A stretch of DNA of 39,185 bases from positions 1 to 39,185 of IMG/VR virus record IMGVR_UViG_3300049139_000186; one strand, written 5' to 3'. The notes under the pieces were generated by a model. That model saw only the letters and a list, made by a program, of their open reading frames with translations, was not told the DNA's origin and did no database searches. Made by a program: the position numbers and the translations under genes. This stretch comes from a virus (lineage: Duplodnaviria; Caudoviricetes). How positions within the stretch are numbered: position 1 is the stretch's first letter; every line of letters begins with the position of its first letter. Of the stretch, positions 289 through 39,184 are shown one piece after another.

Positions 289-488
289 CGTCGTGGGCTG
301 AGGATCGGGAGTACGCCGCCCTGGAGAAGGACGACGAGCGGCAGCGAGCCGAGCAAGTGCCGTGCCCAGAGCCGGCGTGCGCCGCGGGGGTTGGGGAGAC
401 CTGCCGGGACCTCCATAGCGGGCAGCCGTTGGGGAAGCTGCCAGCGCACTGGCGGCGGATCAGAGCCGCGAACGAGTCCGCGTCGTGA
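285..488 (+). CDS. Small phage zinc-finger protein
   Basis: CPEPAC-x7-C...H-x2-R motif; coupled at both ends. Confidence 0.7.
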   Translation: MTSWAEDREYAALEKDDERQRAEQVPCPEPACAAGVGETCRDLHSGQPLGKLPAHWRRIRAANESAS

Positions 489-646
489 CTCCGCTTGAGC
501 GGTGGGATCACCACTGGCGCCGCTGGTACCTGCTGGCGGTACGGCAGGGACGGACCCCGAACGAGGCGATTCCGATCGCGTGGCGGCGCACTGAGGACCA
601 GTACGGACAACGACCAGAGATCAACACCACAGCAGGGAGCACACAC

Positions 647-1321
647 ATGAGTGCGAAATCCGAGTACCACAAGATCGATTCGATCTTCGCCCGTGACCGT
701 GCTGGCCGGATCATCGAGGGCACCTACGCGCGCCCCGAGTTCGAGTACCTCGCCGACCGCGAGTGGGTGTTCACCGAGAAGGTCGACGGCACCAACATTC
801 GACTCTCCTTCGACGGCAGCCCCGAGTTCCGGGGCAACGAGCACGCCTACATCGCTGGCCGCACCGACAACGCCCAGATGCCCCCGTTCCTTCTCCAGCG
901 GCTCGTCGAGATCATGCGTGCCGCGCCGTTCGAGGATGTGTTCAAGCCGGACGATGAGGTCGTGCTGTACGGCGAGGGCTACGGCGCGGGGATCCAGAAG
1001 GGCGGCGGCAACTACCTAGCCGACAGTTGCGACTTCGTGCTGTTCGACGTCCGGGTCGGCACCTGGTGGCTACGCCGGGACGCGGTCGAGGATGTCGCCG
1101 CGAACCTCGGCCTCGCCGTCGTCCCGATCCTAGGGAAGGGCACGCTCGCCGACGCGGTCGAACTGACCCGCGAGGGGTTCGCGTCTGACCGGTGGCCAGG
1201 AGTCGCGGTCGCGGAGGGTCTCGTGCTGCGGCCCGCCGTAGAGCTGTTCGACCGTCGCGGCGAGCGGGTCATCACGAAGATCAAGCACAAGGACTTCGTT
1301 CGCTCTGGTCGGGCGTCGTGA
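647..1321 (+). CDS. ATP-dependent RNA ligase (Rnl2-like nucleotidyltransferase domain); ORF is open upstream to 485
   Basis: Motif I TEKVDGTN, III YGEGYG, IIIa FVLFDV, IV EGLVLRP, V KIK; RBS AGGGAG before ATG 647. Confidence 0.9.
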   Translation: MSAKSEYHKIDSIFARDRAGRIIEGTYARPEFEYLADREWVFTEKVDGTNIRLSFDGSPEFRGNEHAYIAGRTDNAQMPPFLLQRLVEIMRAAPFEDVFKPDDEVVLYGEGYGAGIQKGGGNYLADSCDFVLFDVRVGTWWLRRDAVEDVAANLGLAVVPILGKGTLADAVELTREGFASDRWPGVAVAEGLVLRPAVELFDRRGERVITKIKHKDFVRSGRAS

Positions 1322-2830: not shown

Positions 2831-3004
2831 TCACCCACCAGACGAGCGGCGCTGTTCCTCGGTCTCGGCGACAGGGACGGGCACAACGGCGGCGATGCGT
2901 CGGCCGCGCGAGGTGACGTAGGTGATCTGGCCTCGGACGGCGGCGTCGTTGAGCACGTCGGCGAGGGTGGCTCGCAGCTCTCGGACGCTCTTCTCGTCGG
3001 GCAT
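2831..3004 (-). CDS. Phd/YefM-family antitoxin-like protein (57 aa, not in ORF track)
   Basis: MPDEKSVRELRATLADVLNDAAVRGQITYVTSRGRRIAAVVPV, the Phd/YefM N-terminal DNA-binding signature. Confidence 0.85.
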   Translation of the reverse strand: MPDEKSVRELRATLADVLNDAAVRGQITYVTSRGRRIAAVVPVPVAETEEQRRSSGG

Positions 3005-3011
3005 GGCCACG

Positions 3012-3050
3012 ATGGTACCTCAGCTACCACTCGTGTACACTGGTGAACAC
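3012..3050 (-). promoter_or_regulatory. Probable leaderless promoter of the phd-like gene with two Phd-type operator boxes
   Basis: -10-like TACCAT (minus strand, 3012-3017) 7 nt before ATG; palindrome GTGTACAC 3033-3040 and near-palindrome GTGAACAC 3043-3050. Confidence 0.65.
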
Positions 3051-3074
3051 GGCTAGCCGGAAAGAGGCAAGGGC

Positions 3075-4025
3075 ATGGGACGCGAAGTGAAGCGGGTGCC
3101 GGTCGACTTCGACTGGCTGCTCAACGAGGTATGGCAGGGCTATCTCATGCCCGATCGGCTGCACGAAGACAAGTGCCCGGACTGCAAGAGCGGCTACTCG
3201 CCGCAGGCAGAGCACCTGTTCGACCTCTGGTACGGGTACGCGCCGTTCGATCCCGCCTCAAACGGCTCAACGCCGCTCACGGCGGACACGCCAGCAGTGC
3301 GCGCGTTCGCGGAGCGGAACGTCACCAACTCGCCCGCCTTCTACGGCAGCGGCGTGTTCGCGATCAGCCGCGAGGCTCAGCGGCTCGCCGACCTGTGGAA
3401 CGGGCAGTGGAGCCACCACCTCGCCGAGGACGACGTTGCGGCCCTACTCGAAGCCGATCGGCTGTGGGACCTGACCCGCCAGATCGGCCCGAACGGCTGG
3501 GAGGACATCGACCCCAAGCCCGTCCCAACCCCGCAGCAGGTCAACGAGTGGTCCATCCTGGGGTTCGGCCATGACTCGATCAACGCCAGCGTTGTGGTCC
3601 GGGCCCGCTGTGTCCGAGAGGGGCAGCCGGAGGTGTGCTCCACTTGCCAGGGTCACGGCAGCGCGGAGGTGTACGAAGGCCAGCGCGCCGAGGCTGAGGC
3701 GTGGGAGCCGACCGAGCCACCGACCGGCGAGGGCTGGCAACTGTGGGAGACCGTGTCGGAGGGTTCGCCGATCTCACCCGTGTTCCCGGACGCCGAGGGC
3801 TTGGCGCAGTGGCTGACCACTAAGGACGCCTGCTGGGGCGCGATGAAGGAGCCAATGACGGTCAGCGCGGCGCGTGCGTTCGTCGGTGAGGGATGGGCAC
3901 CCACGTTGATCGGGAACGCTGGTGGCATCCACGAGGGCGCGGACTATGTCGGCACGGAGAAGGTGCTCAAGGACATCGAGAACGGCGGCTCTGGGTCTGG
4001 TTCTGGGGTGGTGACCGAACGGTGA
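3075..4025 (+). CDS. Conserved hypothetical phage protein with Cys pairs
   Basis: MGREVKRVP...CPDC...CSTC...EPPTGEGWQLWETVSEGSPISPVF; RBS AAGAGG. Confidence 0.8.
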   Translation: MGREVKRVPVDFDWLLNEVWQGYLMPDRLHEDKCPDCKSGYSPQAEHLFDLWYGYAPFDPASNGSTPLTADTPAVRAFAERNVTNSPAFYGSGVFAISREAQRLADLWNGQWSHHLAEDDVAALLEADRLWDLTRQIGPNGWEDIDPKPVPTPQQVNEWSILGFGHDSINASVVVRARCVREGQPEVCSTCQGHGSAEVYEGQRAEAEAWEPTEPPTGEGWQLWETVSEGSPISPVFPDAEGLAQWLTTKDACWGAMKEPMTVSAARAFVGEGWAPTLIGNAGGIHEGADYVGTEKVLKDIENGGSGSGSGVVTER

Positions 4026-5374
4026 TCCGCGCGTACCAGTTCGCTCTTGACCCGACCGTCCGCCAGATCGAGGCGATGCGGAGTCACTGTGGGGCGACCC
4101 GCATGGCCTTCAACTGGTGCCTGGCCAAGGTCAAGGCCAACTGGGCGCAGCGAGCGGCGGAGCAGAGCTACGGCCTGAGCGGCGAGCAGCTCACTCCCTG
4201 GATCGACACGTCTGCATACGCCCTGCGTCGGGCATGGAACGCCGCCAAGGGCGACGTCGCGCCGTGGTGGAAGGAGAACAGCAAGGAGGCATACGCCTCC
4301 GGATGCGCGAACCTCTCCGCTGCTCTGCGCAACCTCAGCGCCGGCCGGACTCGCATGCCGCGCTACAAGACCAAGCATCGATCGCGAATGTCGTGCCGAT
4401 TCACTACCGGGATCTTCGGGCTGACCCGCGACCGGCGGCACGTGCGTCTCCCAGTCATCGGCGTGATCAGGACCCATGAATCGACGCGCAAACTCGCTCG
4501 CCGCGTCGAGTCCGGTGTTGCTCAGATCAAGTCGGCGACGCTCAGCTTCCGGCGGGGGCGCTGGCAGGTTGCGTTCGCCGTCGAACTGGGCGAACCCGCT
4601 ACGCAGCGACAGGGCGACACGGGCGTTGTTGGGGTCGACCTGGGAATCAAGGAGTTGGCCACGCTGTCAACTGGCGAGCGTGTTCCTAACCCCAGGCGTC
4701 TCGATGCCGCGCTTCGTCGGCTGCGTCGCGCTCAACGGGTGTGCTCTCGGCGGCGCGGGCCGCTGCACAAGGTCGGCCTGGAGTCGTCGAGCCGGTGGCG
4801 TAGGGCGCGAGCGCGGGTTGACCGCATCCACGCCCGAGTTGTCAATCTTCGACGTAACGACACCCACCAGTTCACCACCCGCCTTGTCCGGGACTTCGAC
4901 ACGATCGTGATCGAGGATCTACATGTGGCCGGGATGCTGCGAAACCGCAGACTGTCCCGTCGAATCGCCGATGCGAACTGGGCGGAGATCCGCCGCCAGG
5001 TGACCTACAAGGCGGACGCCGCGGGTGTCCGGTTGATCGTCGCGGACCGTTGGTTCGCGTCCAGCAAGACGTGCTCGGGATGCGGGACAGCGAAAGCCAA
5101 GCTGCCACTCTCGGTGCGGACCTACGCATGCATGGCGTGCGGCCTCGTCCTTGATCGGGACGAGAACGCCGCGCTGAACCTGGCCGCCCTGGCCAGCACC
5201 GGCGAGTTGCGCCGGGAGCAGCCCGACAGAACCGATGTCAGACCGGTGACGCTTGCGTCGTCCGGCAGTCGGACCGCTGCGGGAAGAGCTACGTGCTCAA
5301 CGTCAACGCCGCAAGGGGTTGGCTCGGTAGGCGGGTCAGTGCGACCTGCGGACCGAACGGTGGTGACCCAATGA
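4022..5374 (+). CDS. tnpB: IS607-family RNA-guided endonuclease TnpB (no tnpA)
   Basis: RAYQFALDPT N-terminus, VAPWWKENSKEAY motif, RuvC-I VGVDLG, RuvC-II IVIEDL, Zn ribbon CSGC/CMAC, RuvC-III DRDENAALNL; GTG start overlaps the upstream stop. Confidence 0.95.
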   Translation: MIRAYQFALDPTVRQIEAMRSHCGATRMAFNWCLAKVKANWAQRAAEQSYGLSGEQLTPWIDTSAYALRRAWNAAKGDVAPWWKENSKEAYASGCANLSAALRNLSAGRTRMPRYKTKHRSRMSCRFTTGIFGLTRDRRHVRLPVIGVIRTHESTRKLARRVESGVAQIKSATLSFRRGRWQVAFAVELGEPATQRQGDTGVVGVDLGIKELATLSTGERVPNPRRLDAALRRLRRAQRVCSRRRGPLHKVGLESSSRWRRARARVDRIHARVVNLRRNDTHQFTTRLVRDFDTIVIEDLHVAGMLRNRRLSRRIADANWAEIRRQVTYKADAAGVRLIVADRWFASSKTCSGCGTAKAKLPLSVRTYACMACGLVLDRDENAALNLAALASTGELRREQPDRTDVRPVTLASSGSRTAAGRATCSTSTPQGVGSVGGSVRPADRTVVTQ

Positions 5375-5380
5375 CGATCC
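5190..5380 (+). ncRNA. Predicted TnpB omegaRNA (scaffold to ~5360, guide ~5361-5380)
   Basis: Overlaps the tnpB 3' end; stem-loops at 5199-5215, 5304-5321 (GCAA loop) and 5324-5356, ending in AACGG as IS607-type right ends do; 5' boundary is a guess. Confidence 0.7.
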
Positions 5381-5685
5381 AGGAAGGGGTGGGTGATGTG
5401 TTCCCTATCCCAGAAGAAGCGATCGAAGCAGCCGTGGACGTGTCGTGGGGCGGTCAGCAGTTGCGCCGTGATCACGCGCGATACGTGCTTCAGGCTGCGG
5501 CTCCGCTCATCGTGGCAGCCGAACTCGACCGGCTCGCCGAGTGCCTGCCGATCAGTCTCGGCGTGATGGACGACGACGACCAGGCGGACCCGGAGTCGAT
5601 GCCGACCTACGACGAGGGCGTCGACGACATGCAGCGGTTGCTGAGGGGGCGGGCTTCTGTGTTGCGTGGGGAAGGGGTGACATGA
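5371..5685 (+). CDS. Hypothetical phage protein
   Basis: ATGA-coupled to tnpB; IPEEAIEAA...LQAAAPLIVAAEL motif seen in actinophage early genes. Confidence 0.7.
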   Translation: MTIQEGVGDVFPIPEEAIEAAVDVSWGGQQLRRDHARYVLQAAAPLIVAAELDRLAECLPISLGVMDDDDQADPESMPTYDEGVDDMQRLLRGRASVLRGEGVT

Positions 5686-5900
5686 CGGTCCGGCGATTTT
5701 CGACGCTGTTCTGCGACGCAGACGATGGCGGCTGCGGCGAGTGGGCCGACGTCGACGATGGCGTGGGCACGCACGACGACGCTCGCAGCCTGCGGAGGGC
5801 CGCGAAGCGACGCGGATGGACGAGAGCCAAGGTCGGCGACCGGTGGCAGGACTTCTGCCCGGCGCACCGGTTGCGTGGGGAAGGGCTAACCAATGGCTGA
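5682..5900 (+). CDS. Small Cys/His zinc-binding phage protein
   Basis: CDADDGGC...GW...DFCPAH; coupled start. Confidence 0.7.
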   Translation: MTVRRFSTLFCDADDGGCGEWADVDDGVGTHDDARSLRRAAKRRGWTRAKVGDRWQDFCPAHRLRGEGLTNG

Positions 5901-6204
5901 CAAGAGCGACTTCCCGATCGTCGAAGGCGCCTGCCGTCACAGGCTCCGCTCTCACGGACCGTACGGGCCGACGTGGCCGTGCAACGAGCCACGCTGGCAC
6001 CTGGGTCGTCACCGGTTCCGGAACTACACGTGGCCGCGGATCCCGCACGTCTGGCGGGTCAAGGCTCTGTCGGAGACGTGGCGGGCGAATCGGCGGCTGC
6101 GCGGCATGGGCGCGACAGGGGGCGACGGGTTGATGCGGTTGCAGGCGGTGCTGTATCCGAAGCGGTTCGATCCGTTGCCGGGTGGGGAGGGACTGTCCCA
6201 GTGA
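5893..6204 (+). CDS. Hypothetical phage protein
   Basis: ORF in operon, overlaps both neighbours. Confidence 0.65.
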   Translation: MADKSDFPIVEGACRHRLRSHGPYGPTWPCNEPRWHLGRHRFRNYTWPRIPHVWRVKALSETWRANRRLRGMGATGGDGLMRLQAVLYPKRFDPLPGGEGLSQ

Positions 6205-6428
6205 GTGACCTCGCAGAGCGTGTGATGGCCAAGATCCTCGACCCGGACGAGACAGTCCACGGCGAGCAGTTGGCGGACGCCGTGCTGGAGACGCTGCGGC
6301 TGCATCGCGCGGATCGCGGACTCGAAGCCGACCCGGACAACCGGTGCTTCGAGTGCGCCGAGATGTCGCCGTGCCCCACCCTTCGGGCTGTTGCTGGTGC
6401 TTTGGGTGTGTTGGAAGAGGGGGGCTGA
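6201..6428 (+). CDS. Hypothetical phage protein with H...CxxC...PCPT motif
   Basis: GTGA-coupled; RCFECAEMSPCPTLRAVA. Confidence 0.7.
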   Translation: MSDLAERVMAKILDPDETVHGEQLADAVLETLRLHRADRGLEADPDNRCFECAEMSPCPTLRAVAGALGVLEEGG

Positions 6429-36188: not shown

Positions 36189-36382
36189 GAGTTAGATGAT
36201 GGGTTAGGTCAGCGAGGTCGAGTTAGGTTCCTAACTCCCGCGTAACTGGCCTCGAATGCGGTCGTGACCTGCGGCAAGTTAGGTGAGTTAGCCGAGTTAG
36301 GTGCCGTCAGCGGACCCTCTGGAACCCCCGAAATCGGGGGTCTCGAGACGTGACGCGGGAGCTAACTTCCGAGCAGGTCACG
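36189..36382. repeat. clt-like cluster of (G/A)(A/G)GTTAG(G) repeats downstream of traB
   Basis: Copies at 36189, 36201, 36220, 36276, 36285, 36294; inverted copies at 36230 and 36361; palindrome GAGTTAGG-TT-CCTAACTC; outer inverted pair CGTGACCTGC/GCAGGTCACG. Confidence 0.75.
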
Positions 36383-38672
36383 CGCCCTCCCGCCGACGGT
36401 TCAACGCCTCCCGAACCCGGGCCGGGTCCAGCGGCCACCGGTTGCCTGTGGACGGCACCTGCACCCCCAACACGGCCAGCCGCTCCCGCAGACTCTGCCC
36501 ATCCAGCCGCTGATAAGGGACGTGGCGTGGCCAGGCGTGCTTGAGCAGCGGCGGCACCTGCGCGATCGGTAGCACGTCGTGAAGCACCTCGGCCAGGTCG
36601 GCGAGCAAGTCCCGTTCCCGAGCCAACCTCACCGTCGGGCCGGCCCTGCGTCCTTCCCGGAGTTGCAGGGCCCTCTTGGTGACGCGGTGCGCGTCCGATT
36701 GCGGCACGTAGAAGCAGCGCATCAGGCCGGGTTTGCCGGTGAACCCGCGCTGCATGCAGGTCCCGACGTCGCCGGGGCCGTCATCGGTTTTGGGGGTCAA
36801 CCCGACCGCGGAGATCCCGGACTTGTACGACCCGGAGCCGAGGACGGCGTCGTTGCCCTGGTGGTCCCCGATCGCGAAGCACGCCTTGTTGCTGGCGATC
36901 GTGATCAGCTTGCGTGGAAGCGCGTCCTTGCTGGGCTCCGGGGTGAGGAACAGCAGCGTCACCCCGTACTTGCGGGCAGTCGACATGAGCTTCGTGGTGA
37001 CCTCGATCGCGGCTTTACCGTGCTCACCGATGAACAGGTTCTGGCACTCGTCGATCACCATGATCCGCGGCCGCAACCGGGCGTCCTTCTCAGCGATTCG
37101 CCTGGTCACAGCCCTCTGGTCATGCTCCCGCAGCGCTGCTCCCCGGATCGCGATGTCCTGGTACCGCTCGTGGAGCATCGCCAGGCACTGCTCCACGGTC
37201 TCCTCCCCAGCGCCGGTGACCAGCGTGTTGAGCCGGGGCCGCATGGGGTCGTAGTCGGCGTTCTCCGCCATCACCACCACATCGATGTCCACCAGCGGGT
37301 CAAGCATCGCCCCGAGCAGGATCGTGATGACCAGCGTGGATTTGCCGGAGCCCATCATCCCGCCGACTGCGTAGTTCGCCTCCGACAACCGGCCCTTGAT
37401 CACATCGCCCTTGATGGTGACCCCCACCGGCACGCCTTCGAAGTAGTCGGTCTGCGCGGTGTCGAGTTCGTCGAGCAGCGGCCACGGGTCCACGGGCTTG
37501 GACAGGACACCGGGGTTGGCAACCCACAGGTCGAGCACCGCGGGTAGGGGTTCGGTGGGCCACACCTCGATCGGGTACCGCTTCAGGTTGTGGGCCAGCA
37601 GCAGCTTGCGTTTCACGAACTCCTCGACCGGCGCGGCGGGGGGAAGGTCGAGTTGGGCGCGCCACCCTTTCCCGTCAGGCATGGGTGGTTTGCGGTAGTG
37701 CATGCGCCACCCGTCCTTCAGCGCCCGGTCCAGGGCTGGGACGGTCTTCCGGAGCGCTTCGACGATCATCGTCTCGTCGGGCAGCCCATCCATGACATGA
37801 CCAGGTTCGGTGTCGGGTTTGACGAGCCAGCGCGGGGCGTTGTTGGAGTGCTTCCCCACCCACCGCAAGCCCGCCACCAGCACAAACGGAGCAGCGAACA
37901 CCAGCACACCGAACAGCGTGACCAGGGCGGTGACGGTCCAGGCGATCACCGTGAACGTCCCCACCATCGGGGCCAGCACGAGGGACAGGTCCTCGTTCGC
38001 CACGGCGATCGTCCCGCCGAGCAGCAGCAACCCCACCAGCCCGATCACGAGGGTGAGCAGCAGCGCTTTCGCTATTTTGAACGGCAACGCCAGCAGGTCC
38101 ATGTGCCGCCTGTGGCGCCGCTCCCGGGCCTGCTCGGCGCGCTGCTCCCACTCCGCCACCCGGTCGTAGTCGCCGGCGGCCTCGAACGTCCGCATCATCC
38201 GCTCGTAGCGGCTGTTGGTCTTCGCCTCCCAGAACCGGCGGGCGAGGACCACCACCCCCGCGGCGACGTAGGCGCCCTGCCGGGCCACACCGCGGGTGAC
38301 GCGCACGGTGGGTTCGTGGTGGCGGACCACCCTCACCGCCCGCACCACGGGTCGGGTGGCCTTGGTGACCGGGCGGGTGATCCGCACCAGCGCGGTCCCC
38401 GGCTCGGCATCGTCCACCAGCTCGGCATCCAGGACCGGGCCCTGGTGCTCCACCTGGTCGCCAGCCCGGCGCACCAGATCACCAGCGTGGGTGGTGTCCG
38501 GGTAGCCATCCCCGTCCGCGTCGACCAACTCGACGTCGTGGGTGTCGCCCACGGTCGCCCGCTCCCGCCCAGCCTCGCCAGGCTGGTCGGCGCGCGGCTG
38601 CGGGCTGGGGTGCCGGGGCCGGAACGACAGCACGTCCCCGCCTCGCTCCTCCTGGTGTGGGTGCTCGGTCAT
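36378..38672 (-). CDS. traB: FtsK/SpoIIIE-family conjugative DNA translocase (TraB-like)
   Basis: Two TM helices, Walker A GGMMGSGKS, Walker B VIDECQ, C-terminal wHTH-like region; ATGA-coupled start 38672. Confidence 0.9.
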   Translation of the reverse strand: MTEHPHQEERGGDVLSFRPRHPSPQPRADQPGEAGRERATVGDTHDVELVDADGDGYPDTTHAGDLVRRAGDQVEHQGPVLDAELVDDAEPGTALVRITRPVTKATRPVVRAVRVVRHHEPTVRVTRGVARQGAYVAAGVVVLARRFWEAKTNSRYERMMRTFEAAGDYDRVAEWEQRAEQARERRHRRHMDLLALPFKIAKALLLTLVIGLVGLLLLGGTIAVANEDLSLVLAPMVGTFTVIAWTVTALVTLFGVLVFAAPFVLVAGLRWVGKHSNNAPRWLVKPDTEPGHVMDGLPDETMIVEALRKTVPALDRALKDGWRMHYRKPPMPDGKGWRAQLDLPPAAPVEEFVKRKLLLAHNLKRYPIEVWPTEPLPAVLDLWVANPGVLSKPVDPWPLLDELDTAQTDYFEGVPVGVTIKGDVIKGRLSEANYAVGGMMGSGKSTLVITILLGAMLDPLVDIDVVVMAENADYDPMRPRLNTLVTGAGEETVEQCLAMLHERYQDIAIRGAALREHDQRAVTRRIAEKDARLRPRIMVIDECQNLFIGEHGKAAIEVTTKLMSTARKYGVTLLFLTPEPSKDALPRKLITIASNKACFAIGDHQGNDAVLGSGSYKSGISAVGLTPKTDDGPGDVGTCMQRGFTGKPGLMRCFYVPQSDAHRVTKRALQLREGRRAGPTVRLARERDLLADLAEVLHDVLPIAQVPPLLKHAWPRHVPYQRLDGQSLRERLAVLGVQVPSTGNRWPLDPARVREALNRRREGA

Positions 38673-39184
38673 CGCCCGTCCTCGCCCGGGTGGGTGTCGC
38701 GCCGTACCCGGGCGGCCAACCCGGTCGCCAGGCCGAGGACCGCGACCGGGACGCAGGCGACGACCACGGTCACTCCCCAGGGGGCGGCGGTGACGCCGGC
38801 GGCGCTCAGCAGATGGGAAGCGACCTGGGCGCCCGCTCCCACACCCAGGCTGGCCCACGCGGAGCGGCGGGCGTAGGCCCGGGTTCTCGCTGACAGGGTG
38901 GCGGTGGACAGGTGCACGCGGAGGGCGTACAGGCCGTAGGCCTCGATCCCGATGGGCAGCACGATCGCGGTGTTGATTTGCAGGTCGCCCGCCCACCCGG
39001 GGAGTCCGGGCAGCGGGTGAATCAGCCCGAACCCTGTGAGTTCGCCGAGTTCTACCCACCCTCCCCAGATAGCGACGGCCGCGGCCACCCCGATCAGGAC
39101 GAGGGGCAACCGCCCGGGTAGGCGGGTCCGGTCCGCCCGGGTGTCACCCGGGTCGCCCGCGGGTGCTCCCGGGATGGGGGTGGG
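38669..39184 (-). CDS. Spd-like multi-TM membrane protein (5' end beyond window)
   Basis: AVAIWGGWVELGELTGFG...TAIVLPIGIEAY...VACVPVAVLG; frame open to window edge; adjacent to traB as in AICE/plasmid transfer modules. Confidence 0.7.
   Translation of the reverse strand, partial: PTPIPGAPAGDPGDTRADRTRLPGRLPLVLIGVAAAVAIWGGWVELGELTGFGLIHPLPGLPGWAGDLQINTAIVLPIGIEAYGLYALRVHLSTATLSARTRAYARRSAWASLGVGAGAQVASHLLSAAGVTAAPWGVTVVVACVPVAVLGLATGLAARVRRDTHPGEDGR

What the first reader, a model, noticed from the sequence alone, without database searches (positions are those of the whole stretch)
4004..5380. Transposase-less TnpB whose guide would target the empty allele of its own insertion site (RNA-guided homing element in a phage operon)
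Seen: tnpB has all three RuvC acidic motifs but no tnpA and no room for a left end. Its GTG overlaps the upstream stop and its stop overlaps the next ATG. GGTGGTGACC occurs at 4007-4016 and again at 5359-5368. Deleting one copy plus the interval gives ...TCT GGG GTG GTG ACC CAA TGA CG..., which ends the upstream ORF in frame (GVVTQ*) and restores ATGA coupling to gene 5371. The predicted scaffold ends ...hairpin-AACGG at 5360, so the guide would be TGGTGACCCAATGACGATCC. In the reconstructed empty allele this 20-mer directly follows TGGGG. Known: TnpB guides derive from the right flank and cut element-free alleles; IS607 elements recombine at GG; a TGGG TAM was reported for the C. botulinum IS607-type IStron TnpB. 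Inference: a stand-alone TnpB acting as a homing or competition nuclease against related phages lacking it, inserted without disrupting operon translation.
Basis: partly seen in the sequence, partly recalled or inferred. Interest (0 to 1): 0.85.

Follow-up and report, generated by a model that had tools for sequence, protein, structure and literature searches.

The report
Phage TnpB with self-immune junction copy
A soil phage carries an intact-looking RNA-guided DNA cutter (TnpB) that has lost its jumping-gene machinery and sits behind a slightly re-spelled copy of its own predicted target; it likely cuts related phages that lack it while sparing itself, but no such phage was found and no cutting is shown.

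Summary
The gene is an IS607-family TnpB with its three catalytic residues and a covarying guide-RNA scaffold that ends at AACGG 5360, as in 12 of 13 relatives. No tnpA homolog was found in the contig, and the usual 57-60 nt left end is missing. In its place are 13 nt that finish the upstream gene and supply tnpB's ribosome site. With tnpB's start they copy the predicted guide at 16 of 20 positions, behind GGGG, the clade's commonest insertion motif. Mismatches at guide positions 9, 12, 14 and 15 predict self-immunity.

Best reading (0.55): an RNA-guided intronless homing or competition nuclease. Against it: no empty allele was found, the 10-mer is also a ribosome-site motif, and a sister phage holds the gene at the same locus with another guide. 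One related solo TnpB at a tRNA gene shows the same logic with real wild-type alleles.

The scan noted this cut-and-spare layout before in other phages; this is a minimal case. New variant of a known kind; interest 0.5.

The parts
3075..4025 (+). Upstream phage gene of unknown function (316 aa), ends GSGSGSGVVTER*; its last codons lie in the replacement junction
   Evidence: no Pfam or PHROG family
4004..4008 (+). TGGGG, predicted TAM with the GG core at 4007-4008
   Evidence: sequence; clade insertion sites GGGG in 15 of 28
4009..4028 (+). Self-site: degenerate copy of the predicted guide, 16/20, mismatches at 9, 12, 14, 15; 4009-4021 replaces the 57-60 nt left end and holds tnpB's ribosome site
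   Evidence: best match to the guide in the whole contig
4013..4024 (+). Exact 12-mer also found across the right end (5351-5362)
4022..5374 (+). IS607-family tnpB; RuvC D206 (4637), E298 (4913), D380 (5159); zinc-finger cysteines 351/354/370/373; C-terminal tail reads through the guide RNA
5202..5360 (+). Predicted omegaRNA scaffold and right end; five covarying helices; own terminal hairpin 5331-5349; ends AACGG (5356-5360); the true 5' end is unknown
5361..5380 (+). Predicted guide (first 16-20 nt of the right flank); covers the ribosome site and ATG of the next gene
   Evidence: right end by homology; guide-from-flank rule from PMC10690162 and PMC10705468 passages
5371..5685 (+). Downstream small gene (PEEAIE...AAAPLI...RASVLRGEG family); a homolog also follows tnpB in sister phage G003; start may be ATG 5371 or GTG 5389

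Best explanation
This is an IS607-derived TnpB and guide-RNA cassette without transposase or left end, which likely acts as an RNA-guided homing or competition nuclease: its guide is predicted to cut the uninterrupted gene junction in related phages, while a re-spelled junction copy keeps the upstream gene whole and is predicted to escape cutting. Steps. (1) Shown: tnpB lies in the phage operon with overlapping start and stop and no promoter-like site of its own; co-transcription is inferred. (2) Shown by homology: the scaffold ends at 5360; inferred: the next 16-20 nt are the guide. (3) Inferred from 28 insertion sites: the TAM is RGGG. (4) Inferred: a co-infecting phage or prophage with GGGG directly followed by the guide sequence is cut, and is either lost or repaired from this genome, copying the cassette. 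(5) Inferred from ISDra2 data: the self-site, with two mismatches within positions 1-12 and two more at 14-15, is not cut. (6) Inferred origin: repair of a cut empty allele joined its left arm (TAM plus 8 nt of target) to the tnpB start by microhomology, dropping the left end and tnpA. The cassette can no longer be moved by TnpA, so recombination would be its only route.
For: IS607_TnpB above cutoff and catalytic residues present. dN/dS 0.16-0.33 against 23 relatives and 0.22-0.26 on its own long branch, dS about 0.5. Scaffold: 94.8% of cells paired and 19 of 34 pairs with changes on both sides, against 11.0 +/- 1.8 shuffled and 27-51% paired when slid (the structure came from the same alignment, so the controls lean in its favour). 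The right-end motif that resembles the left-end repeat is present in 14 of 18 relatives and absent here, while AACGG and a terminal hairpin are kept. The self-site is the best guide match in 39 kb and abuts GGGG. A seed copy of 8 nt or more behind a G-rich motif within 400 nt upstream: 3 of 54 solo guide candidates, 0 of 50 with tnpA, 3 of 10,680 cross pairs. The other two are phage L109 (74% identical, no tnpA, same GTGA overlap, 11-nt copy) and L176. In L176 the guide matches the native tRNA-Ser(CGA) of 16 of 19 related genomes for 16 nt behind GAGGG, while its own tRNA has a compensatory change in TAM and seed. The window and sister phage L001 rank first and second of 63 loci for left/right junction similarity.
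Against: No empty allele was found: 0 exact matches of 5359-5378 in viral contigs and 0 of 401 genomes; none of 8 close upstream-protein homologs ends in VVT; none of 12 upstream-homolog loci has the downstream family or tnpB beside it. The 10-mer is a ribosome-site motif: most of the 19 near matches are starts of unrelated genes, and the window's guide accounts for 2 of the 3 cross-pair hits. Sister phage G003 carries tnpB at the syntenic site at 75% nucleotide identity, like other shared genes (68-82% for the longer matches), with a different guide and upstream gene and no G-run before its left copy; this fits old vertical inheritance. The window's TnpB has a long branch (0.48, median 0.13) and keeps 184 of 194 conserved columns, fewer than its nearest relatives (98-100%). 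dN/dS does not date the loss of tnpA. The scaffold alone folds only weakly better than shuffles (z -1.6). No activity or expression data exist.
Confidence: 0.55

Rival explanations
1. Stranded IS607 remnant. TnpA once inserted the element at GG; an ordinary deletion later removed the left end and tnpA; tnpB has ridden along in the operon since, with little or no present target.
For: tnpB without tnpA is the majority state (PMC10055086 passages); here 75 of 145 full-length loci had no tnpA hit upstream, short contigs included. Same locus in G003 at ordinary divergence. No empty allele found. Slight excess of changes at conserved columns.
Against: Purifying selection on a long terminal branch, a kept scaffold, and an 18/22 junction repeat that a plain deletion does not produce.
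Confidence: 0.22
2. Active nuclease, but the reconstructed empty allele never existed. Both 10-mers are independent ribosome-site or gene-end motifs; cassette shuffling placed a new gene upstream, and the guide targets a junction in which another gene precedes the downstream gene.
For: The motif sits at 2 of 117 candidate coupled junctions of G004; near matches in host genomes are gene starts; the upstream neighbours of window and G003 differ while the downstream family is shared.
Against: Exact TAM-abutting register, 18/22 identity against a maximum of 14 elsewhere, and the 12-mer shared with the right end.
Confidence: 0.15
3. Main role is self-regulation: TnpB binds, without cutting, the TAM plus 8-nt seed at its own start and throttles tnpB and the downstream operon. 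This can coexist with the best reading.
For: TAM and 8 matched seed bases overlap tnpB's ribosome site. Nuclease-dead TldR proteins bind with a seed of about 6 nt and repress transcription (PMC10705468 passages).
Against: The catalytic residues are intact, unlike TldR; the site is inside the operon, and no promoter-like site was found near it.
Confidence: 0.08

Closest known systems
IS607-family TnpB with omegaRNA (CboIStron TnpB, PMC10690162; ISFba1, PDB 8iaz matched at E 1.4e-40, the name-to-entry link recalled)
   Same: Protein family, scaffold ending in CGG at the right end, G-rich TAM with GG core, guide from the right flank, cutting of element-free sites.
   Different: No serine TnpA, no left end, right-end repeat motif lost, no intron; a partial target duplicate although IS607 makes none.
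Free-standing (intronless) homing endonucleases of phages, such as T4 Seg and Mob (PMC13565253 passages); phiPA3 gp210 competition (PMC11620839 abstract)
   Same: Nuclease gene in a phage operon, self allele protected by substitutions, predicted target in co-infecting relatives.
   Different: Target set by an RNA guide copied from the flank, not by protein; activity unproven here.
TnpB-only elements (IS1341 group) and TnpA-independent TnpB gene drive in plasmids (PMC11870625 abstract; PMC13565253 passages)
   Same: tnpB alone; spread by cutting the empty allele needs no TnpA.
   Different: Those keep both ends and can be moved in trans; this has no left end and belongs to IS607.
TldR (PMC10705468)
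   Same: TnpB domesticated by prophages, with self sites altered to avoid targeting.
   Different: TldR lacks the catalytic triad and represses promoters; this protein keeps it.

Membership tests
IS607-family TnpB protein | Scores above the NF038280 cutoff | tested here: met
   469.7 vs 350 bits
IS607-family TnpB protein | RuvC D-E-D triad and zinc finger | tested here: met
   D206, E298, D380; C351, C354, C370, C373
IS607-family TnpB protein | Structured omegaRNA overlapping the gene's 3' end and ending at the right end | tested here: met
   (predicted, not sequenced)
IS607-family TnpB protein | RNA-guided, TAM-dependent DNA cleavage | not testable with these tools
   needs an assay
IS607 transposon (autonomous or mobilisable) | Serine recombinase tnpA in cis | tested here: not met
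   no tblastn hit in the contig at E<=1
IS607 transposon (autonomous or mobilisable) | Left end of about 57-60 nt with the clade's (A/G)CTG motif and repeats | tested here: not met
   only 13 nt between GG and tnpB, motif absent
IS607 transposon (autonomous or mobilisable) | GG core at both junctions | tested here: met
   4007-4008 and 5359-5360
IS607 transposon (autonomous or mobilisable) | No target-site duplication | tested here: not met
   8 nt exact beyond GG and 16/20 overall; rule from PMC10690162
Intronless homing endonuclease | Free-standing nuclease gene between phage genes | tested here: met
Intronless homing endonuclease | Own allele differs from the target by substitutions | tested here: met
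   four mismatches to the predicted guide; resistance itself is predicted
Intronless homing endonuclease | A cleavable nuclease-free allele exists in related phages | tested here: inconclusive
   none found, but no close sister phage lacking tnpB was available
Intronless homing endonuclease | Biased inheritance in co-infection | not testable with these tools
   phage uncultured
TldR repressor | Inactivated RuvC triad | tested here: not met
IStron | Group I intron at the left end | tested here: not met
   13-nt left region; only one Rfam match at E 0.33, far below its threshold

The most novel reading that the evidence does not exclude
IS607 TnpB converts itself into a transposase-free, end-free homing gene: each cut-and-repair event leaves a TAM plus a partial, uncuttable target copy at the left junction that rebuilds the interrupted gene end and ribosome site, so the cassette re-targets to new gene junctions in phage operons (window, L109, perhaps L001) and to a tRNA gene (L176) at no cost to its carrier. 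That would be a natural reprogrammable cleave-and-rescue drive between phages.
Probability: 0.3. Interest if true: 0.8.

Novelty: new variant of a known kind. Interest (0 to 1): 0.5.

Why it matters
TnpB homing is shown for insertion sequences in chromosomes and plasmids, and protein-guided intronless homing for phages. My paper searches listed no title or abstract showing RNA-guided homing between phages by an end-less TnpB with a resistant junction copy; the library lacks most subscription papers. If true, it shows how a transposon nuclease survives total loss of transposition and becomes a phage-versus-phage weapon. The locus gives a cheap test: one guide, one predicted target, one predicted resistant self-site. 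The clade also offers an untested RGGG-TAM TnpB.

Tried and rejected
Empty-allele hunts, all negative: exact right-junction 20-mer in viral contigs, 0; blastn of 2900-6400 against 50,697 phage records, 10 partial hits, none joining the flanks; upstream protein in viral contigs, 3 and 8 loci, and in 2 of 401 genomes, none beside tnpB or the downstream family (12 loci examined); downstream family in viral contigs, only G003, in 11 of 401 genomes as distant homologs (8 of 19 loci inspected), none in named phages; a linked marker gene gave no close tnpB-less sister. Empty allele for L109: not found. Sequencing runs: one DNA holder, possibly the source of this contig, and no RNA holder listed; its contigs showed no joint skipping the cassette, but contigs drop rare variants. 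Rfam: nothing meaningful. Rejected: 4009-4018 as a left-end remnant (one relative begins TGGTTAGCTG, but the window lacks the (A/G)CTG motif in register). Rejected: Cbo TGGG as the TAM in register. Not established: a single clade of phage TnpBs; window and L001 share only an 82%-support open fork and L109 lies elsewhere in a quick tree. Slips corrected: wrong TnpA frame; L109 guide off by one base (correct); my note said 3 of 53, the count is 3 of 54. No structure prediction was run.

Full report
Setting. The window is a whole 39,185-base contig of a tailed phage: terminase, portal, capsid, tape measure and amidase genes, with an operon of small overlapping genes at 1-10 kb. Named close relatives of its TnpB come from Pseudonocardiaceae, Nocardia, Rhodococcus and Prescottella, so an actinobacterial host is inferred.

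Observation. The protein is an IS607-family TnpB (469.7 bits, cutoff 350) with D206, E298, D380 and four zinc-finger cysteines. It is 450 aa, against mostly 432-445 in close homologs, because its tail reads through the RNA region to the stop at 5374. tblastn with a relative's TnpA found nothing in the window.

Right end and guide. In 12 of 13 relatives at 63% identity or more that could be scored, AACGG ends 155-168 nt from a conserved anchor; the window gives 159, which is position 5360; L001 differs and 3 loci had no end to score. Conservation stops there. RNAalifold on 13 scaffolds gave 37 pairs, 22 with compensatory changes. Counting 34 of them (I dropped a 3-pair helix at the 5' edge), 94.8% of cells pair and 19 pairs change on both sides, against 11.0 +/- 1.8 in shuffles; the structure was derived from the same alignment. 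The window's own fold is only modestly stable (z -1.6). A motif just inside the right end that resembles a left-end repeat is in 14 of 18 relatives but not in the window; calling it a TnpA site is my inference. PMC10690162 (passages) reports that the Cbo IS607 scaffold ends in UCGG, that the TAM is TGGG, that integration needs GG and that no target duplication is made.

TAM and left end. Of 145 full-length loci, 70 had a tnpA hit upstream; 40 distinct complete candidates were listed and I could place a left end in 28, by a fixed offset from a conserved motif, so some may be a base off. The four flanking bases were GGGG 15, AGGG 5, GGAG 2, GGGT 2, and TGGG, CTGG, TCAA, CGCC once each; most left ends are 57-60 nt. 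The window has GGGG at 4005-4008 and then only 13 nt before tnpB. A review (PMC13639567, passages) gives AGGAG and GAGGG as the main IS607 TAM classes.

The left junction. Those 13 nt plus tnpB's start match the predicted guide at 16 of 20 positions, the first 8 exactly, with mismatches at 9, 12, 14 and 15; it is the best guide match in the contig. They also hold an exact 12-mer of the right end. For ISDra2, double mismatches in positions 1-12 abolish cutting, and cuts fall 15-21 nt from the TAM, so self-immunity is predicted, from a different TnpB family. Chance was tested with ribosome-site bias in mind. The 10-mer occurs at 2 of 184 candidate coupled junctions in two other phages and 0 of 454 elsewhere; the 22-mer reaches 18/22 only here, at most 14 elsewhere and at most 13 at 66 relatives' tnpB starts. 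So the 10-mer alone is suggestive and the full repeat is unlikely to be chance.

Relatives. L001 (phage G003, 76% identical) has no tnpA, a different upstream gene and the same downstream family. G003 is syntenic with the window at 68-82% nucleotide identity over the longer matches, tnpB at 75%, which suggests long residence at this locus; yet the guides differ, and window and L001 rank first and second of 63 loci for left/right junction similarity (0.13% and 0.28% of 3,906 cross pairs score as high). L001's left copy has no G-run before it. L109 (phage G004, 74%) has no tnpA, the same GTGA overlap, TGGGG plus 3 guide bases right before tnpB, and an 11-nt guide copy after TGGGT 302 nt upstream at the start of the neighbouring gene. 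Across 104 guide candidates from 91 loci, a seed copy of 8 nt or more followed a G-rich motif in 3 of 54 solo and 0 of 50 tnpA-linked cases, and in 3 of 10,680 cross pairs, 2 of them with the window's own guide; in tnpA-linked loci the 400 nt searched are tnpA sequence, so that is a composition control only. The third case, L176 (55%), lies behind tRNA-Ser(CGA). Its guide matches the native tRNA of 16 of 19 related genomes for 16 nt behind GAGGG, while its own tRNA carries a paired change that alters both the TAM and guide position 11. The flank beyond the guide was not found next to the tRNA in those relatives. This is the only case in my data with real wild-type alleles.

Selection. dN/dS is 0.16-0.33 against 23 relatives and 0.22-0.26 on the window's own branch by three-taxon subtraction, like tnpA-linked elements; 184 of 194 conserved columns are kept, fewer than in the nearest relatives. 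The branch is long (quick tree). This favours a maintained protein but does not date the loss of tnpA.

Empty allele. Not found. The nearest upstream proteins are only 72-85% identical and end differently, so no close sister was sampled; absence is not shown. The 19 matches with up to 2 mismatches in 401 genomes (control 1) are mostly starts of unrelated genes. Two downstream homologs start at the position of GTG 5389, so ATG 5371 is plausible, not proven. Unpublished genomes: G091 counts in the 62 of 401 tally, G133 gives one of the 19 matches, and G611 is one of the 3 non-matching tRNAs (16 of 18 without it); no conclusion rests on them.

Mechanism. Best reading (0.55): an RNA-guided intronless homing or competition nuclease with a minimal replacement junction. 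Rivals: stranded remnant (0.22), active nuclease with a shuffled upstream neighbour (0.15), self-repression (0.08). It works like a homing TnpB; it is a member of the IS607 TnpB protein family but fails the tests for an IS607 transposon.

Known and new. TnpA-independent TnpB drive is known for plasmids (PMC11870625, abstract and outline; PMC13565253, passages), intronless homing and nuclease competition for phages (PMC11620839, abstract), and solo tnpB is common (PMC10055086, passages). Two preprints mention phage TnpB in other roles or as a hypothesis (passages). TldR data are from PMC10705468 (passages). Searches listed no paper on this layout, judged from titles and abstract starts; I read no supplements, and large TnpB surveys may list such loci there. 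Earlier notes of this scan describe TnpB cassettes with a spare gene tail in many other phages; they are unchecked and I did not test them, but I took the 'spare copy' framing partly from them. Nothing earlier was noted on this genome or protein.

Verdict. Observation confirmed; interpretation partly supported; new variant of a known kind; interest 0.5, held down by the missing empty allele and the short, ribosome-site-like repeat.

Noticed in passing
L176 1226-1314 (tRNA-Ser CGA) and 2910-2930: Solo IS607 TnpB whose guide equals the native tRNA-Ser T-arm of 16 of 19 related genomes, while its own tRNA has a compensatory pair change in TAM and seed: a clean resistant-self case.
   Followed up: partly
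L109 2693-3004 and 4345-4458 (phage G004): Second phage solo TnpB with GTGA overlap; the gene before it begins with an 11-nt copy of the guide, and the right flank stays open in the upstream gene's frame for 36 codons.
   Followed up: partly
window 4007-4024 and 5351-5368; L001 4349-4376; L007 4332-4345: Both window junctions are pieces of one 14-nt tandem unit; L001 has a 14-nt tandem duplication at its right end and L007 a shorter one. Unexplained; may point to a circular intermediate or slippage at the right end.
   Followed up: no
L038 about 995-1015, L041, L143, L145 upstream of tnpB: Several solo tnpB genes have a TCGAAC-N4-GTTCG motif just upstream, which I recall as the actinobacterial LexA box; DNA-damage-induced TnpB is possible.
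   Followed up: no
L194 right flank: Another solo TnpB whose guide begins like a tRNA T-arm; ARAGORN found no tRNA in the locus.
   Followed up: partly
L007 2975-3001: Nocardia solo tnpB about 25 nt after the stop of an EF-hand-like gene, with no left end.
   Followed up: no
G004 C1 110898-112121 (-): The L109 phage has a second, distant TnpB (38%) with one internal TAG.
   Followed up: no
window 5668-5688 and 5866-5896: Consecutive small genes end in the same TTGCGTGGGGAAGGG motif, also seen in G003: a likely shared boundary for cassette shuffling.
   Followed up: no
window 36378-39059 (-): 893-aa FtsK-like P-loop protein on the opposite strand at the contig end.
   Followed up: no
window 485-1321 and 2472-2828: RNA ligase and nucleoside 2-deoxyribosyltransferase-like genes in the same operon.
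   Followed up: no
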